From assembly GCA_977017645.1 (NCBI GenBank), contig OZ360249.1, positions 31,682,001-31,746,000 on the forward strand: a stretch of DNA of 64,000 nucleotides, in the 5' to 3' direction. Source of the DNA: Torpedo marmorata. Taxonomy: Eukaryota. Both the position numbers and the translations under genes were made by a program. Shown here piece by piece: positions 1 to 60,692 of this stretch (position 1 is the stretch's first letter; each line of letters opens with the position of its first letter). The notes beneath the pieces are model-generated. The model made no database searches. It saw only the letters and a program-made list of their open reading frames with translations, and had not been told where the DNA came from.

Positions 1-144
1 AACATTAATAATTTTCATCATACTTAACTTACATAAATCTTTCCAATGATTTTCATCTATATTTACATTTAAATCTAATTCCCATTTTAATCTTGATTTA
101 TACAGTCCTATTTTAGGCATTTTCCTCTGAAACAATTTAGACAT
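1..144 (-). mobile_element. L1-clade LINE ORF2 fragment (continues beyond window start)
   Basis: Aligns by eye with 9710-9850 of the L1 copy at 8917-10439. Confidence 0.8.
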
Positions 145-5294: not shown

Positions 5295-6161
5295 AGTAAA
5301 AAACACAAATGCTGGAGAACTCAGCAGGTCAAACAGTGTCTTTTATGTAGCAAAGGTAGAAATACATAACTGACGTTTCAGGCTTGAGCCCTTCTTCAAA
5401 GTATGAGAAAATGCCGGCAGACGTCCGAACAAAGGAGTGAGGGGGGAAGGGTGGGTGGGAAAGGCAGAAGATAATAGGTGGAGACAGGAGGGAGGGGACA
5501 GTAGCAAAGAGGGGGAGGAGGGATGGCTGGGTAGCTGGAGAAACACAGGAAGGACAGGTGAGGGGGGAGGGGAAGGGAACAACAAGCAGGTTTAGTGGAA
5601 AGCAGAAAAGTCAATGTTAATTCCATCTGGCTGGAGAGTGCCGAGACGGAATATGAGATGTTGTTCCTCCAGTTTGCGGGTAGTCTTGGTGGGATAGTAC
5701 ATGAGGCCATGGACAGACATGTGAGTGTGGGAGTGTGACCCAGAATTGAAATGGTTGGCCACTGGGAGGTCGCTGTTGTTGCGAACCGAGCGGAGGTGCT
5801 GAGCGAAGCGATCTCCCAATCTACGACCGGTCTCTCCAATGTATAGAAAGCCAAAAAGGGAGCACCGGATGCAGTAAATAAGTCCTCTGGATGTACAAGT
5901 GAAGTGTTGCTTCACTTGGAAGGCCTGTTTGGGGCCCTGGACCGTGGTGAGGGGGGACGTGTGGGCGCAGGTGTTGCACCTCCTGCGGGCACAGGGGAAG
6001 GTTCCGGGGGTGCGATGGGTGGGGAGGGACGAGTGCACGAGTGAATCACGGAGGGAGCGGTCCCTACGGAAGGCCGAGAGGGGAGGAGAAGGAAAAATGT
6101 GTCTGGTGGTGGGATCCTGCAGCAAGTGCCGGAAATTCCGACGGATAATGTGTTGGATGCG
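5295..6161 (-). mobile_element. Penelope-like element, 5'-truncated, inserted into a SINE tail
   Basis: ORF 5592-6170 with GLIYCIRC...YIGETGRRLGDRFAQH; TSD TTTAGACA at 5287-5294 and 6162-6169; hammerhead motif at about 5366-5405. Confidence 0.9.
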
Positions 6162-6399
6162 TTTAGACATTCAGCACGGTAACCGGCCCTTCTGGTCCAC
6201 GAGCCCGTGCCACCCAAATACACCCAATTAACCTGCAACCCCCCGTACGTTTTGAAGGGTGGGAGGAAACCAGAGCACCCGGAGGAATCCCACGCAGGCA
6301 TGGGGAGAACGTACAAACTCCTTACACACAGCGCCGGATTCTAACCCGAGTCGCTGGCACTGTAATAGTGTTGCGCTAACCCCTATGCTAACCGTGTTG
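6162..6399 (-). mobile_element. HE1-like V-SINE (AT-rich tail displaced to about 5249-5294)
   Basis: SINE head and V-domain; the tail resumes on the other side of the Penelope insertion. Confidence 0.85.
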
Positions 6400-21068: not shown

Positions 21069-21406
21069 GCTATTACAGTGGACAGAACCGAGGAAAATCC
21101 AGCCCATAGTTGTAAACATACTTCCAAACATTGATTTTTCTAATTATCTAAAATAACTGAGCTTGACTCAATAGTGATGGTATCCTGCCCCAGACTGAAA
21201 TCTCATTATTCCTTCCACCTCCTGAATCACACAAGCATTCATTGTGGTTCTATGACCGAATAACATTTTGGTTTCAACTATCCCTCTTTTCTATTTTCTC
21301 TTCACTTTGCTGCCTTACTCTGCCTTCCCCCGCTTGTTGTTTTTAAAATCCTCACAGCCATTACTCCCCAGCTTCTTCTCAATTTCTTCACTGAGACAAT
21401 CTACCA

Positions 21407-23012
21407 AAGACCCGACCAGTCACCCTCTACCACCACCCTCCTCCGCCTGGCAGAACTTGTCCTCACTCTCAATAACTTCTCCTTCAACTCATCCCACTTC
21501 CTCCAAATCAAAGGAGTAGCCATGGGTACCCGCATGGGTCCCAGCTACGCCTGCCTGTTTGAGAGCTTTATGGAGCAATCCATGCTGCAAGCCTGCACAG
21601 GCAAGACCCCTCATCTCTTCCTCCGGTATATCGACGACTACATCGGGGCTGCCTCATGCACCCGCGATGAGCTTGTCAACTTCATCCACTTCGCATCCAA
21701 CTTTCTCCACGATCTCAAACTCACCTGGTCCATCTCCGATAACACTCTCCCCTTCCTGGATCTCTCTGTCTCCATTCGGGAGACAAGCTTTCCACCGACA
21801 TTTACTACAAACCCTCCAACTCCCACAACTATCTGGACCACACATCCTCACACCCTGTCCCCTGCAAGGACTCCATCCCCTTCTCTCAATTTCTCCGCCT
21901 CCGCCGCATCTGTTCCCAAGATGAGGTGTTCCACTCCAGATCTTCTGAAATGTCTGCCTTTTTCCACAAACGTGGCTTCCCCTCCACCACCATCAACTCA
22001 GCCCTCACCCGCATCTCCTCCATTTCCCGCTCATCTGCCCTGGCCCCCTCTGCCCCCAGACGCAACAAACATAGAATCCCCCTCATCCTCACCTACCACC
22101 CCACCAGCCTCCGCATCCAACACATTATCCGCCGGAATTTCCGGCACTTACTACAGGATCCCACCACCAGACACACTTTTCCTTCTCCTCCCCTCTCGGC
22201 CTTCCGTAGGGACCGCTCCCTCCGCGATTCACTCGTGCACTCATCCCTCCCCACCCATCGCACCCCCGGAACCTTCCCCTGTGCCCGCAGGAGGTGCAAC
22301 ACCTGCGCCCACACCTCCCCCCTCACCACGGTCCAGGGCCCCAAACAGGCCTTCCAAGTGAAACTACACTTCACTTGTACATCCAGAGAACTTATTTACT
22401 GCATCCGGTGCTCCCTTTGTGGCTTTCTATACATTGGAGAGACCGGTCGTAGATTGGGAGACCACTTTGCTGAGCACCTCCTCTCCGTCCGCAACAACAG
22501 CGACCTCCCAGTAGCCAACCATTTCAATTCCGGATCACACTCCAACACTCACATGTCTGTCCATGGCCTTATGTACTATCCCACCCAGACTACCCGCAAA
22601 TTGGAGGAACAACATCTCATATTCCGTCTCGGCACTCTCCAGCCAGATGGCATTAACATTGACTTTTCTGCTTTCCACTAAACCTGCTTGTCGTTCCCTT
22701 CCCCTCCCCCCTCACCTGTCCTTCCTGTTTTTCTCCACCTACCTAGCCATCCCTCCTCCCCCTCTTTGCTGCTGTCCCCTCCCTCCTTTCTCCACCTATC
22801 ATCTCCTGCCTTTGCCATCCCCCTTCCCCCCTCACTCCTTTGTTCGGACGCCTGCCGGCATTTTCTCATACTTTGATGAAGGGCTCAAGCCCGAAACGTC
22901 GGTTATGTATTTCTACCTTTGCTACATAAAAGACACTGTTTGACCTGCTGAGTTTCTCCAGCATTTGTGTTTTTTACTTCAACCACGGTGTCTACAGATT
23001 TTCGTGTTTTAC
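21407..23012 (+). mobile_element. Penelope-like element, longest copy (RT C-terminal half, GIY-YIG endonuclease, 3' end)
   Basis: KGVAMGTRMGPSYACLF, FLRYIDD and LPFLDLSV RT motifs; frameshift near 21780; ORF 21926-22681 with LIYCIRC...YIGETGR. Confidence 0.92.
22867..22907 (+). ncRNA. Minimal type I hammerhead ribozyme motif in the Penelope 3' end
   Basis: Stem I CATACT/GGT(T)ATG, core TTGATGA, stem II GGGC-TCAA-GCCC, GAAA, palindromic ACGT stem III; predicted cleavage after GTC at 22900. Confidence 0.75.
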
Positions 23013-26684: not shown

Positions 26685-27099
26685 AAAAAGCCTCCATGCA
26701 ACTAAATTGGCCTGGAAGGCATCGCATCCAATTCATTAAAGTAGTTTTGATCTTGCATTAATGTCTTTCACTGCAGTCTAGCTCTGGGAAGCGGTGTGGA
26801 AAGGGGGTACTTTAATCCAAAAGCTTTTTTCGAGGCAACACATTGCAGTTCCCCATGAGTCAGGATGCTGATCAAAAGGCTGACCTGCCATAATAGGAAA
26901 AATCCGGCCTGACAGTGAGGTCAGCCTGAAGTGGACGCACTAGTGTTTGCATTGAAGACTCAACACGTGTTGGTAACGGAACTATCATTACCACAATAAG
27001 AAGAAGGAGAAGGAGAAAAAAATAACCTAAAATAAGAAAACTGTTCGGCAAAAGTAAATAAGGAATTAGTAAGAAAGCCTCCACCCCACCCTCTTCCTG

Positions 27100-27705
27100 A
27101 GACGGGCTCCAACTCCCGAATGCCAGATCCCGGTCCCATTGGCTCGCTCAATCTATCTCCACCCCATTGTCAGGCAAGGTGCGCCAATGATTGGTCCAGC
27201 CGACTGTCAATCAAGCGGCCGGACACCAAAGTTGGCCTGCCCTCAGTCACCATGACGTCATTCGCAGGTGTGGAGAAATTAGCTCTGCGAAATTTTTTTT
27301 TTGGGCTCTCTAACGCACAAAAAGCGACGTGATTAAAGCTGGAAATATGAATTCACCCCTTGATTATTTCTCTCTGCCTCAAAACGTGGCCGCAATCCTC
27401 AGCCGTCCCGGGGCCGCACGGCGAAGGCACCGACCCCCGCGGCGCAAAGCGTTTGACGTCCGATCAGAGGAAAAAAAGGTGCCGGGCGCCACTGCGCGGT
27501 GCTCCGCCTCTGGAGAGAAAATAGATCCAGCGTTTCAACCAAGAGGGAAGCCGCCAGCAGGCCCCAAGAACCGGGGATTCGGTGCAAACTGCCACAATGC
27601 AGTGTGAACGTTAATCCCGAATGCAAGCTGGAGCCAGAGTGTCGGTTTTGGGCGTTTCCCGTGGCGGCGGAAGGAGGCGAAGCGCCCGCGGTTGTCAGAG
27701 AAGGG
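27100..27705 (+). promoter_or_regulatory. CpG-island promoter and probable first exon of an unidentified + strand gene
   Basis: Only CpG-dense non-repeat region; ATTGG at 27138, CCAATGATTGG at 27184-27194, CTGTCAATCA at 27204-27213, TGACGTCA at 27253-27260; donors GTAGGT at 27706 and GTGAGT at 27805. Confidence 0.7.
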
Positions 27706-30700
27706 GTAGGTCTGTGTGTGTGTGTGTGGGAGACTAAAAATAGCAACATTGTATCTTTTTTATACAATTATTCATTTCGCGGCTGATACAGTATCCTCTG
27801 ACTGGTGAGTAAAAATAGCAACATTTCTGCTTCCCCCCCCCCAGCCACCCAAATGTATCTGCTTGGCAGAGAAATTGGAGCATGTTTGGTGGAGATTTGC
27901 CTTTCCTGCCCCAGAGTAATGACAGGCACTGCAGCATCAGAGCTTGGGGGAGCTTACTTTATGTAGAACAGTGGCAATAATCCCTCAGAGTGCCTACCGA
28001 CTATTTTGAAATATATATTTAAAATATATATGCATTGGCAAGGGGGGGGAAATCACGCCCCACGTCCCCACCCCCTCTCCTTGGGATCATTCTCGAGGTG
28101 ATGTGACAGTGGGAATGAGTTCTACTCTGTAATTAACCCGGAAATATTCTGGCATTTCTTTTTCTACCCCATCCCACTCTTGAAGGATTTTTTTTCTGAC
28201 AGTTGAGGAGAAAGTGATGGTGTGCGGCGAACACTCAGAGGTGTAAAAGTTTGGAACACGATTGTCAGGGCCGCCGTCAAAGAGGCAGGAATCAGTAAGT
28301 TCAACCAAACTATTTTTTAAAAAAATAATATTTTTGGGGGTGGGGGGAACGGAAGCTTTACTCTGTATTTTCTTTCAAAGCGGCCCATTTGATTTTGGGG
28401 GGGATTGCCTCATGATTGTGTAAATGCTCTCTTTCACATCCCCGATCTACGTGATCAGTAAATGGGCAAAATAGCCCTGTTGGCTGTCATGTGTTCTTCA
28501 GGGAGACGCGAAAATTGCCCTGTTATGAAGTAATCCATCCAGTTTCCAAAACATTCAGTTACGCGTGCGAGCCAGACGGTCTCACTGAAAGCATTAATTC
28601 AGTTAGTATTCATAACGCAGCCTCTTAAATCCCCACATCGCTTTATTGTAATTGGGCAGTGAGATGAATGTCCTATACAACTTAATAGCTTGACAGATCA
28701 GCTGAATCGTCATGGAGAATGTAATTTTATTGCGAAGTTCTCATAACCAGTCGTGGATATGGTGCTTGTTGTTGATTTTGCCACTGATATTTTTTCAATG
28801 GAACAACCTTCTGCATCTATTTACGTTTAATCCCATAAATACTCTTGTATATCCGGACCATTATAATACGTCAAAATTTCATAAAATGTTTATTTTTGTG
28901 TGAAATTCGCTCATGCTTCTGTGATCGTCCCTCCTTGGTGTTCATCGTTGCTGAAGCTCTCAATGCAGCTTTAAATAAAACAATAATTGATCTTAATTTT
29001 TTTTTTTAATGGGCTGACTGAAAATTGTTTTGGATTCTTGATGGCTGCGCTCGTGGTATTACTTGTTAAAGGTCACGTTTGTTACATGATGTATCACAGA
29101 TTTGTTTTGTCATTTGTAATGTAATATAATATTGTGAACCTGGTGGTCAAAGTTAGTAAGAGCTCTTTAGTAGGCAATAATCTTAATGTGTGAGATGGGC
29201 AAGACTGGCATTAAATTACAGTAGAGACATCTACAGCTCGAATTGTATATGTATAGATAGACGTTGTGTTAACATTTTTATGCATTATATACATACTAAA
29301 TTCTGGCATTTTCTGATCTGTTGTAAAATACGTTGCAATAAATGAATTTATTGTATTACATTAGCTGCTTAAACATACAACGTGGAAAATTCATAAGTAC
29401 TTGTATTTTCAGACTGAAGTGTCAACAGATTTTGAATTAAATGTTCCTGAAAGCATGAAGAATGTGGCTTGTTTCTTGTATGTTCGAGTAATTTTTGCAC
29501 TCACTTAAAATATATCCAGAATTACGTTTCTTCTAAAGGGAAGTAAGTAGTGAGTTCTGGTGATGTGTGGGTCAATGAAAGGATTCTGTAAACATGAGGA
29601 TTTGATCAGTGTGGCTTGGTACAATAATATGCACAGACATCCTGTCGTGTAACAAGAAATTGGGAAGTAATTGGCTTGGAGTTTTGAAACAAAAATAACA
29701 ATTTGAAATGTGAAATACCAAGCGGTAATTTGTTTTGATTTTTTTTTTTCAAGGAAAGTCACAATATACGAAGGTTAATGTCATTAACAGAATAGCACAT
29801 TATGCCTGTGGCCCACGATTGAAAGTCTTCCATTGAATCTATCTACCAAAAGTGGGATGAACTGCAGTGGTATAAACAATTTTAACTAAAAGTTTAAAGA
29901 TACTGACTTTTAATATTTCTTGTTAAAGTTGAATTTTCACAAGTCGATCAAAGTTTTTGTTGATTGATTTTGAATTTGCCGTGATGACAGTTGGACCTTC
30001 TCTTGAAGATTTTGAATCACAACAGTGTAGTATTCCTAGATTTGGTGAACTGCTATATTTAGATAACATGACTGATTATCTTGCATTTTGTTTGGATGAA
30101 CATTGTAGCTTGGGTTGTGAAAGTTTGAGGAAGTCCTGATGTGACAGGTGGTACATAAATGTAAATTTATTCTCAACTTGATATTTAAGTATTAAATATT
30201 TGAACTTGGAAGCAGCATCTAAAAACATTTTTTTATTCTAACTGGATGTGTTCAGGAAATTGAAGACATAAATTTGTAGTTTTACGAGATGGTGCAGTTT
30301 TACTGAATTGATGTTTGCATCATCTTGAAGATTCAATTATTTTAAGTAGTATAACGATGTTCTGGAAAGTTTAAAATCAATATCAAGGAAGTTCAAAATG
30401 TTGAAATAAGCATTTATTATGCTTTTCAAGCCAGCTCAAAATGTGGCCTCTACATTAAGTATAAGGTTGTAATGCCCAATGGAACACCATAGACATGGGG
30501 AAGTTCATATAGTTGTAACACAGCATGTGTCTTTTATTGCACATTTTGGCAGTAGATTTAAGTTTCTGCACCTGCATCTGGGTTTCTGAATTATACATTG
30601 TGGTGAGATTTGTAGCTGCCAAATCCTGTCAGAACTCAGGCTGTTATCAACAAAGCTTTATTTTGGTCCCTCTTTTCTGTAATAAGACTCGGTGCAAAAT

Positions 30701-58594: not shown

Positions 58595-58850
58595 CCAAAC
58601 CTAACCCTAACCAAAAAACCCCCAACTAACCCAACCCTGAACTCCCAAACTAACCCTAAACTGAACCCCCCAACTAACCCTCACTTGAACCCCCCCAAGT
58701 AACCCTAACGTGAACCCCCAACTAACCCTAACCTGAAGCCCCAAACCAAACCTAACCTCAATCACAACCCATAGCCCAACCCCAACCCAAAACCTAAACC
58801 CCCCAACTAACCCAAACGTGAACTCCCCAACCAACCCCAACCTCAACCCC
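58595..58850. repeat. Degenerate telomere-like minisatellite (about 23-24 nt unit CTGAACCCCCCAACTAACCCTAA)
   Basis: Repeated TAACCC/CCCTAA hexamers in a higher-order repeat. Confidence 0.75.
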
Positions 58851-59466
58851 TTTAAGATCCATTTAAGATGGAAGTAAAACTTTCATCTTTGTTCTTCATT
58901 AAATTTATTGCATCAAATTAAATAATTCTTTCCCAGCTTGGATAAATCCTAAAACTAGGCATTTTACATTTTAAGAATTTTATTTAAAATCAAGAAAGGA
59001 TTGGAATGGGACCTCGATGGGAAACATTTGAGATTTGAGTAAATAAAGGGTGTACATTGGAGGTCTATATCAAGTCGTTACTTAATTCAGCAATGATTAT
59101 TTTGAATTTCTTGGAAGTTCAGGCACTTTACTGCATTGTTTATGTTACTTTATGTTAAACTTTATTTATATTTCAGGATCTGGGCAAAGGAAAGTAGCAT
59201 TTATTGCTCATACTTACTTGCCTTTAGAATTGAGAGGCTTGCTAGGCCATTTCAGGGTATATTTGAAAGTCATTTGTACTGGTGGGTCTGAGGTTTCATG
59301 CAGACCAGATAAGGGAAAGATGGTAAATTTTCCAAGAAGGTTTTTGTGACAATCCAGTAATTTTGATTCATCATTGCCACTGAGTAGTTTTTTTTTTTTT
59401 AATTCCATGTCCGATGAAGGATTTGAACTCCTGATCATTTGGTGTTAGTCCAGGCTTCTGAACTGA

Positions 59467-59668
59467 ATTTTTCTCATACTTTGATGAAGGGCTCAAGCCC
59501 GAAACGTCGGTTATGTATTTTTCTCATACTTTGATGAAGGGCTCAAGCCCGAAACGTCGGTTATGTATTTCTACCTTTGCTACATAAAAGACACTGTTTG
59601 ACCTGCTGAGTTTCTCCAGCTTTTGTGTTTTTTACTTCAACCACGGTGTCTACAGATTTTCATGTTTA
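59467..59668 (+). mobile_element. Penelope mini-element with two tandem hammerhead motifs
   Basis: Perfect 50-nt tandem repeat at about 59467-59570; 12-bp TSD CTTCTGAACTGA at 59455-59466 and 59669-59680. Confidence 0.88.
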
Positions 59669-59840
59669 CTTCTGAACTGAGAGTCCAGTAACTTTAAACA
59701 CTGTGTGGCAGCCATGTTTTTGCATTGACTTTGCCTGATTAAGAGATAAAGCACACTTAATGACATTTAAATTGTGGATGTGAGTGCTTTATTGTACTGG
59801 TGGTTCTGTAGGAAATAGCTGCCTATTCTTGCTCACCGTT

Positions 59841-59993
59841 GATGAAGGTTACCTTGATGAAGGGCTCAAGCCCGACACGTTGGTTATGTACCTTTATCTT
59901 TGCTACATAATGTACACTGTTTGACCTGCTGAGTTTCTCCAGCATTGCATTTTAACTTCAATCACGGTGTCTGCTGACCTTCGTGTTTTACTT
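59841..59993 (+). mobile_element. Penelope hammerhead mini-element
   Basis: 18-bp TSD CTATTCTTGCTCACCGTT at 59823-59840 and 59994-60011; core GAAA is mutated to GACA. Confidence 0.85.
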
Positions 59994-60692
59994 CTATTCT
60001 TGCTCACCGTTCAGTGCACCTCTGACTTCTTCACCCGCACCTTGAGACACAAGCCAGAGGTGAGCTGGAGGTTGGATACCTGTATATCCAACCTCATGGT
60101 CTGTCACTGGGTGCCCTTAGCTGTGGCACACTGATTCAGTGAGCTTATAGGCCTGATGTGCTTGTGTATTTGCCCTGTCAGATTTCTCTGCCTCATCTGA
60201 GTAGCACGGCCCATTCATTTAATGAATTTGCTGGCTAATTGTGCTGAATAAAATGGCAACCGTACGTAAATGATTCACTTATTTTTCTTCATTTACTCAG
60301 TTCCAATTAATTTCTGAGACTTTAAGGTGCTTATTTTTTAAAAATTAACTTTGTTGGTTAATTGACTATTTGAATTGATTAGTGAAATTTAAAAAAAAAA
60401 TACTTCAAAAGCCTGAGCTATTTGTCACCAAGCCAATAAAGCATTCTAGGTATTTTGGGACACCCCAACTAAGACCCAATCACCATTTTGCAGGGAGCCT
60501 GTTCGTGTAGTTGTTCTTCCATAACCAGATCAACTTAATGCAGATGATGGGCAATGTGGATGGCAAACTAGGGTAGTGGGCCAGATCCAATACAGATGTT
60601 CCCACCTTCTCAAATCTGGCCTATTTTCCCATTTCAATTGTGGCAGCTTTTGTCCTGTCATGCTCATCTTGCTGAATGAAAGTCTTGATAAC

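What the first reader, a model, noticed from the sequence alone, without database searches (positions are those of the whole stretch)
59467..59668. Perfect tandem dimer of a minimal hammerhead ribozyme as a stand-alone 200-bp insertion
Seen: two identical 50-nt units (TTTTCTCATACT-TTGATGA-A-GGGC-TCAA-GCCC-GAAA-CGTC-GGTTATGTAT) followed by the Penelope tail, inside a 12-bp TSD. Known: Penelope-type minimal hammerheads have a vestigial palindromic stem III (here ACGT) and cleave efficiently only as dimers. Inference: this locus supplies both partners in cis, with predicted cuts after C59508 and C59558 releasing a 50-nt RNA that could circularise like a very small retrozyme. It lies on the same strand as the putative host pre-mRNA, so it could cut that intron co-transcriptionally.
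Basis: partly seen in the sequence, partly recalled or inferred. Interest (0 to 1): 0.72.

Follow-up and report, generated by a model that had tools for sequence, protein, structure and literature searches.

The report
Penelope stub with doubled hammerhead
A 202-base scrap of a very common jumping gene carries its small ribozyme-like motif twice in a row, a doubling found at many other places in this genome and likely a copying stutter during insertion; folding predictions say it would cut poorly or not at all, so it is probably an ordinary by-product even though it likely lies inside a muscle-gene (MEF2A-like) intron.

Summary
In detail: two identical 50-nt units with minimal type I hammerhead motifs, then the element tail, inside a 12-bp target duplication. 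The insertion is a solo end-repeat of a Penelope-like element with 50,849 exact core copies. The dimer is not special: one tight pattern finds 173 such junctions, with periods of 35-71 nt and arrays up to 13 units; a matched control elsewhere in the element finds 5. The doubled part is nearly always the 5' end, so the likely cause is re-priming during integration, not a spreading circle. Activity is doubtful. The core has U3 opposite G8 family-wide, and the double-hammerhead fold is predicted 17 kcal/mol above an inactive rod. In a 2026 preprint only 1 of 9 predicted dimers cleaved, and units from 51 bp are already reported. The sense-strand host claim gains support: a MEF2A-like gene starts coding 60 kb downstream, and a promoter-like island lies 32 kb upstream (inferred, no transcripts). 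No reads of this species were available. The scan noted doubled Penelope hammerheads before, on other genomes. What may be new is the landing-site pattern around the hammerhead.

The parts
59455..59466 (+). left copy of 12-bp target-site duplication
59467..59570 (+). perfect tandem array, period 50, 2.1 copies; begins at the first base after the target duplication; bounded by a 4-nt direct repeat ATTT; both units carry one T more than the family copy L013
59475..59515 (+). minimal type I hammerhead motif, copy a (U3 at 59481, stem II 59489-59500, C17 at 59508)
   Evidence: sequence
59525..59565 (+). minimal type I hammerhead motif, copy b (U3 at 59531, C17 at 59558)
   Evidence: sequence
59509..59558 (+). 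50-nt piece that would be released if both sites were cut (predicted, untested)
59567..59668 (+). rest of the Penelope-like end repeat and tail; 59519-59676 differs from family copy L013 at 2 of 158 positions
59669..59680 (+). right copy of target duplication; first 8 nt also match the element's own continuation (microhomology at the 3' junction)
59823..60011 (+). older copy of a related subfamily (84% alike), 18-bp target duplication, broken GAAA box, and its own short 5' doubling of about 15 nt
22861..23009 (+). sibling single copy (98.7% alike) at the end of a longer element with a weak RT match upstream on the same strand
   Evidence: RVT_1, E 0.012, 21264-22358
27000..27900 (+). single-copy CpG-rich promoter-like stretch with CCAAT boxes, a CRE, a MEF2 site and donor-like sites at 27706 and 27805; inferred start of the MEF2A-like transcript that would contain the insertion
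   Evidence: motif identities recalled

Best explanation
This is a young solo insertion of the end repeat of an abundant Penelope-like retrotransposon whose first 50 bases, holding the hammerhead motif, are present twice, likely because DNA synthesis slipped back and re-copied the 5' end during integration; the RNA is predicted to fold into an inactive rod and likely cuts little or not at all. Shown: structure, family, recurrence of 5' doubling, U3 core. Inferred: reverse transcription began inside the RNA at the tail, helped by 8 nt of match to the target. At the 5' end the new strand re-annealed through the 4-nt repeat ATTT and copied the segment again. At this locus both units share an extra T, which favours re-copying of an already made strand (second-strand or repair synthesis) over a second pass on the RNA. 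The insertion likely sits, unselected, in a 5'-UTR intron of a MEF2A-like gene.
For: 50,849 exact 33-nt cores. GIY-YIG and RT matches lie upstream of sister copies on the same strand (all below Pfam's curated cut-offs). 173 tandem junctions against 5 for a same-size segment downstream in the element, 20 for longer units (13 of them one 93-bp satellite junction) and 23 for whole-stub tandems. In 71 arrays parsed from 69 of 74 loci: 56 restart at -28..-35 (C17 = 0), 63 leave the upstream copy by +16, and 40 begin within 2 nt of the restart. Of 12 arrays restarting at -38 or earlier, 8 begin within 2 nt of the restart, which a circle would not predict. 8 of 17 longer arrays mix different periods. 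Where start equals restart and extra bases sit at the junction, 13 of 19 share the preceding base with the outer junction (some are probably partial extra units). Folding. Frangieh et al. (PMC11167929): internal initiation explains the tail, hammerhead mutants do not affect insertion, and cleavage needed the element's protein.
Against: Nearest-neighbour energies ignore tertiary contacts, Mg2+ and protein help, and a dimeric S. mansoni minimal hammerhead did cleave weakly in vitro (PMC4209133). The denominator for the control was not counted, and patterns select what they can match (restart at -28 or earlier, spacer up to 30). Landing sites avoid the stem II/GAAA stretch (11 of 80 loci at -14..-1 vs 38 at 0..+9, p 6e-7 on width), more than the two-fold difference in available microhomology would give, so structure shapes the slip in a way a plain slip does not explain. 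65 of 131 arrays have a shorter outer copy, which fits a second RT pass as well. The empty site and reads of this species were not seen.
Confidence: 0.72

Rival explanations
1. The element's own reverse transcriptase reaches the 5' end of its RNA, re-primes on the same RNA just 3' of the hammerhead and copies the domain again, sometimes many times, somewhat as telomerase re-copies its template.
For: Restarts pile up at -28..-35, where an initiator-like motif lies (recalled consensus) and where 6 of 30 single copies (about 4 independent events) also end. Arrays mix junctions (8 of 17). Outer copies are often shorter (65 of 131). Landing sites skip stem II. In the first set an extra G preceded the -32 restart in 9 of 12 junctions with inserted bases vs 1 of 13 elsewhere, as copying of a cap would give (p 0.001, post hoc).
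Against: The extra-G signal did not hold in new loci (4 of 9 vs 8 of 29, p 0.42), and G was not enriched at outer 5' ends (24 of 100 listed; 6 of 15 scored as true ends). This locus restarts at about -40, outside the hot spot, and its shared extra T fits DNA-level re-copying better.
Confidence: 0.17
2. The doubling is an ordinary replication slip long after insertion, between two ATTT repeats.
For: The array is bounded by a 4-nt direct repeat and both units carry the same extra T.
Against: It starts at the first base of the insertion, and same-size slips elsewhere in the element are rare (5 vs 173). Perfect identity only shows it is young.
Confidence: 0.06
3. One reading: an active cis double hammerhead that cuts the host intron and frees a 50-nt RNA that can circularise.
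For: A nested double-hammerhead fold can be drawn with all stems. Minimal PLE hammerheads show low activity as dimers (PMC4209133) and cleave with protein help (PMC11167929). The locus is likely transcribed in sense as part of a MEF2A-like pre-mRNA.
Against: The fold is 17 kcal/mol above the rod and 11 above two closed monomers. The core has U3 opposite G8 where Watson-Crick pairs are the rule (PMC3088659 section 8; the size of the loss is recalled, not read). 1 of 9 predicted Xenopus dimers cleaved (bioRxiv 10.64898/2026.07.22.740005). Junctions show no peak at C17 (4 of 80, like neighbouring sites). No second locus with this unit was seen (0 of 100 listed; one search scored 40 of 2135 candidates).
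Confidence: 0.05

Closest known systems
Minimal type I hammerheads in pLTRs of metazoan Penelope-like elements (Cervera and De la Pena 2014, PMC4209133)
   Same: No loop III, palindromic 15.2-16.2, extra base between 9 and 10.1, G10.1-C11.1 pair, mostly dispersed single copies, sense to the ORF.
   Different: Core is U3 with G8 in nearly all copies (the parts I read describe C3-G8 and U3-A8); stem II is 4 bp; here two motifs are 50 nt apart instead of flanking an element.
Vertebrate non-LTR retrozymes derived from pLTRs (bioRxiv 10.64898/2026.07.22.740005; Cervera and De la Pena 2020, PMC7229834)
   Same: Tandem units each with a type I hammerhead, pLTR origin, family unit lengths reported from 51 bp.
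   Different: Classical retrozymes have canonical cores, units of 150-450 bp and shown circles. Here each locus has its own junction, the tail and target duplication of a plain PLE insertion are kept, and no circle or spread is shown.
Solo or partial-tandem PLE insertions with tail and inverted ends (PMC3846280, PMC8557442, PMC11167929)
   Same: 5' truncation, tail from internal initiation, target duplication, microhomology junctions, frequent head-to-head copies among sister loci.
   Different: The passages I read describe tandems of whole or long units; a short stutter confined to the hammerhead domain was not described in them.

Membership tests
Penelope-like element end repeat (EN+) | Repeat lies downstream of a C-terminal GIY-YIG endonuclease and upstream of the next ORF in full copies | tested here: met
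   L013 has a GIY-YIG frame before and long frames after the repeat (E 0.0021); window 5595-6170 E 0.00029; both below the curated cut-off
Penelope-like element end repeat (EN+) | RT groups with PLE clades (Neptune, Poseidon) | not tested
   No tree built; only a weak RVT_1 match. Neptune type is suggested by a cysteine motif before the GIY-YIG (recalled)
Penelope-like element end repeat (EN+) | Variable 3' tail ends and target duplication | tested here: met
   3' ends cluster near +75..80 and +109..118 (the aligner stops early at small indels); 12-bp duplication here
Minimal type I hammerhead | Core boxes UGANGA and GAAA, A15.1-U16.1, H17, stems I and II | tested here: met
   stem I is weak (U-G closing pair, one bulge)
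Minimal type I hammerhead | Watson-Crick pair between positions 3 and 8 | tested here: not met
   U3 with G8; 50,849 vs 225 (C3) and 506 (A8) genome-wide
Minimal type I hammerhead | Dimeric fold with 4-bp palindromic stem III | tested here: inconclusive
   Can be drawn but is predicted strongly disfavoured; protein help not modelled
Minimal type I hammerhead | Self-cleavage at C17 | not testable with these tools
   needs an in vitro assay
Non-LTR retrozyme | Two or more consecutive units each with a hammerhead motif | tested here: met
   a descriptor requiring C3 would miss it
Non-LTR retrozyme | The same unit spread to many loci as a family | tested here: not met
   0 of 100 listed junctions (of 173) repeat this one; 73 were not listed
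Non-LTR retrozyme | Expressed as monomeric circular RNA | not testable with these tools
   no RNA reads of this species

The most novel reading that the evidence does not exclude
Penelope integration stutters on the hammerhead domain: the telomerase-related RT re-primes just 3' of the ribozyme and writes 35-70-nt hammerhead arrays in one step. This would be the birth route of vertebrate retrozyme-like minisatellites, with well over a hundred independent births caught in one genome, this one inside a MEF2A-like intron where protein-assisted cutting could be tested.
Probability: 0.2. Interest if true: 0.6.

Novelty: new member of a known kind. Interest (0 to 1): 0.24.

Why it matters
As a locus it matters little: it is one of many doubled ends of a huge repeat family, and tandem hammerheads derived from Penelope ends are in print. 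Two family-level points have some value. A family reached more than 50,000 near-identical copies with a U3-G8 core, which fits the in vitro finding that cleavage is not needed for insertion. And the genome holds many independent short hammerhead arrays whose junctions map where 5'-end synthesis slips, a testable lead on how retrozyme-like repeats arise.

Tried and rejected
Rfam scan of the window: 0 matches. Sequencing runs: no RNA holder listed, best share 0.35, apparently relatives only. Laid contigs did not span the insertion site, so neither the duplication nor the empty site could be checked. Cap-copy G at the -32 restart: seen in the first set, not confirmed in new loci or at outer ends, so kept only as a lead. 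Rolling-circle origin: rejected because starts coincide with restarts and junctions differ per locus. Plain distance decay of slip length: rejected because landing sites are bimodal. Host coding exons inside the window: none among 43 candidate frames by Pfam, only retroelement domains and one weak stray match; the gene was found in the 200 kb of flanks. Rows left out: L037, L038, L053 (same arrays as neighbours); 5 of 74 loci not parsed; L115 not parsed; some loci are segmental duplicates (L103/L137, L085/L086) and were not merged. Lunse 2017, Przybilski 2007 and Nelson 2008 were not held, so no measured U3-G8 rate was read; a search for C3U found 0 papers.

Full report
Observation. The window holds a perfect 50-nt period from 59467 to 59570. 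A 12-bp target duplication flanks a 202-bp insert at 59455-59466 and 59669-59680. Each unit reads as a minimal type I hammerhead: weak stem I, core UUGAUGA, an extra A, a 4-bp stem II, GAAA and palindromic ACGU, with C17 at 59508 and 59558. Rfam has no match in the window. Offsets below count from C17 = 0.

Family. The window has several relatives, one 98.7% alike at 22861. The genome (6.2 Gb) has 50,849 exact copies of the 33-nt core. In L013 the repeat follows a frame with a GIY-YIG match and precedes further long frames on the same strand. In the window a GIY-YIG match precedes the copy at 5411 and a weak RT match precedes the copy at 22861. These matches are below Pfam's curated cut-offs. 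The repeat is therefore the end repeat of an endonuclease-bearing Penelope-like element with the hammerhead in sense. That the host is a cartilaginous fish and the clade Neptune is recalled from sequence style and agrees with earlier scan notes; no call here names either. The body differs from L013 at 2 of 158 positions, and the first 8 nt of the right target copy continue the element, which fits target-primed initiation inside the RNA as shown for an anole element (PMC11167929, parts 1-2 of 4 read).

The doubling is recurrent. A tight pattern finds 173 tandem junctions, 0 for the reversed control, about 0.3% of the core count. From 74 loci, 71 arrays were parsed on 69 loci: 54 dimers, 13 trimers and one each of 5, 6, 10 and 13 units, first-junction periods 35-71 nt. 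56 of 71 restart at -28..-35, 63 of 71 leave the upstream copy by +16, and 40 of 71 begin within 2 nt of the restart. Controls: 5 matches for a same-size segment downstream (denominator not counted), 20 for landing at about +46..+76, of which 13 are one 93-bp satellite junction, and 23 for whole-stub tandems. The neighbouring older copy at 59841 also has a short 5' doubling. None of the 100 listed junctions equals this one.

How it arises. A circle would give one junction and random starts. Instead junctions differ per locus, 8 of 17 longer arrays mix periods, and 8 of 12 arrays restarting at -38 or earlier begin within 2 nt of their restart. This points to re-priming at the 5' end during integration. 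Landing sites are bimodal: of 80 loci, 31 fall at -19..-15 (10 are one 13-bp unit with a 2-nt microhomology), 11 at -14..-1, 4 at 0 and 34 at +1..+9. Microhomology is about twice as available at +1..+9 as over stem II, so it explains only part of the five-fold gap. Whether the RT re-primes on RNA or the second strand re-primes on cDNA is not settled. For DNA-level copying: 13 of 19 same-start arrays with inserted bases share the preceding base with the outer junction, and both units here share an extra T. For an RT pass: 65 of 131 arrays have a shorter outer copy. An extra G before the -32 restart, as cap copying would give, was strong in the first set (9 of 12 vs 1 of 13, counted by hand) but not in new loci (4 of 9 vs 8 of 29) or at outer ends (24 of 100, counted by hand).

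Activity. For 59467-59570 the minimum-energy fold is a rod at -31.0 kcal/mol in which the two stem II segments pair with each other; the double hammerhead scores -13.7. With both local stem II hairpins forced, each monomer closes on itself (-25.0) and stem III has probability about 1e-4. Such models ignore tertiary contacts and proteins. Position 3 is U opposite G8 family-wide; C3 (225) and A8 (506) occur at point-change levels. Natural cores keep a Watson-Crick 3-8 pair, C-G or U-A (PMC3088659, passages and section 8); one passage lists a natural U3 variant with G8 and an adjacent insertion (PMC7151607). That a U-G wobble lowers the rate strongly is recalled. The extra A is a conserved feature, and dimers and trimers of a minimal PLE hammerhead cleaved only weakly (PMC4209133, parts 1-2 of 4). 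The anole hammerhead cleaved only with protein, its mutants still inserted, and no RNA ends were found at the site. One of nine predicted Xenopus dimers cleaved (bioRxiv 10.64898/2026.07.22.740005, parts 1-3 of 5).

Host gene. No coding exon was identified in the window. In the flanks, a MADS/MEF2 exon (Pfam SRF-TF, E 3e-20; best PDB match MEF2A) and its start exon lie on the + strand, the ATG 60 kb downstream of the insertion. Window 27000-27900 is single-copy, CpG-rich, and has CCAAT boxes, the window's only CRE, a MEF2 site and donor-like sites; G+T skew on the + strand climbs from 28 kb to 56 kb. The insertion therefore likely lies in sense in a 5'-UTR intron of a MEF2A-like gene. This is inference; no transcript was seen.

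Comparison. The motif works like the minimal PLE hammerheads but fails the 3-8 pair test. The array meets the loose definition of a non-LTR retrozyme, for which vertebrate unit lengths from 51 bp are reported, but lacks a spread unit and a shown circle (PMC7229834 passages). Partial tandems, inverted ends and tails are known PLE habits (PMC3846280 and PMC8557442 passages; PMC6765202 and PMC3884650 passages). A short 5' stutter centred on the hammerhead was not in what I read; searches were (listings only, apart from the papers named). Lunse 2017 was not held, and no supplements were seen; the preprint's tables may list such arrays. Earlier scan notes describe doubled Penelope hammerheads in other genomes; none lies near this locus or matches its sequence.

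Verdict. Real, young and ordinary as a locus: a by-product of Penelope integration, probably inactive. Interest 0.24. The family-level landing pattern is the part worth following.

Noticed in passing
window 27000-27900: Single-copy promoter-like island with CCAAT boxes, a CRE and a MEF2 site, probably the start of a MEF2A-like gene whose ATG lies about 92 kb downstream (L290:5865).
   Followed up: partly
window 59823-60011: Older copy of the same repeat 170 bp away, with an 18-bp target duplication, a broken GAAA box and its own short 5' doubling.
   Followed up: partly
L148-L155 (G000 C56; also listed on C76): A 93-bp hammerhead-bearing unit with one junction forms arrays at several places on two contigs, in both orientations; the best candidate here for a unit that did spread.
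   Followed up: no
L139, L104, L036, L260: Longer hammerhead arrays (13, 10, 6 and about 8 units), some mixing periods within one array.
   Followed up: partly
L005, L021, L024: Head-to-head inverted insertions; in L005 both arms carry the same 43-nt dimer junction.
   Followed up: partly
L067, L079, L085 and L171-L200: 5' ends of single copies pile up at -28..-32, at an initiator-like motif on the 5' edge of stem I, a possible transcription start of the element.
   Followed up: partly
window 58601-58850: Degenerate 24-bp tandem repeat with telomere-like C-rich units about 600 bp upstream of the insertion.
   Followed up: no
G000 C30 29.83-29.91 Mb (L115): One 36-nt dimer junction repeated at nine places within 75 kb, apparently by local amplification.
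   Followed up: no
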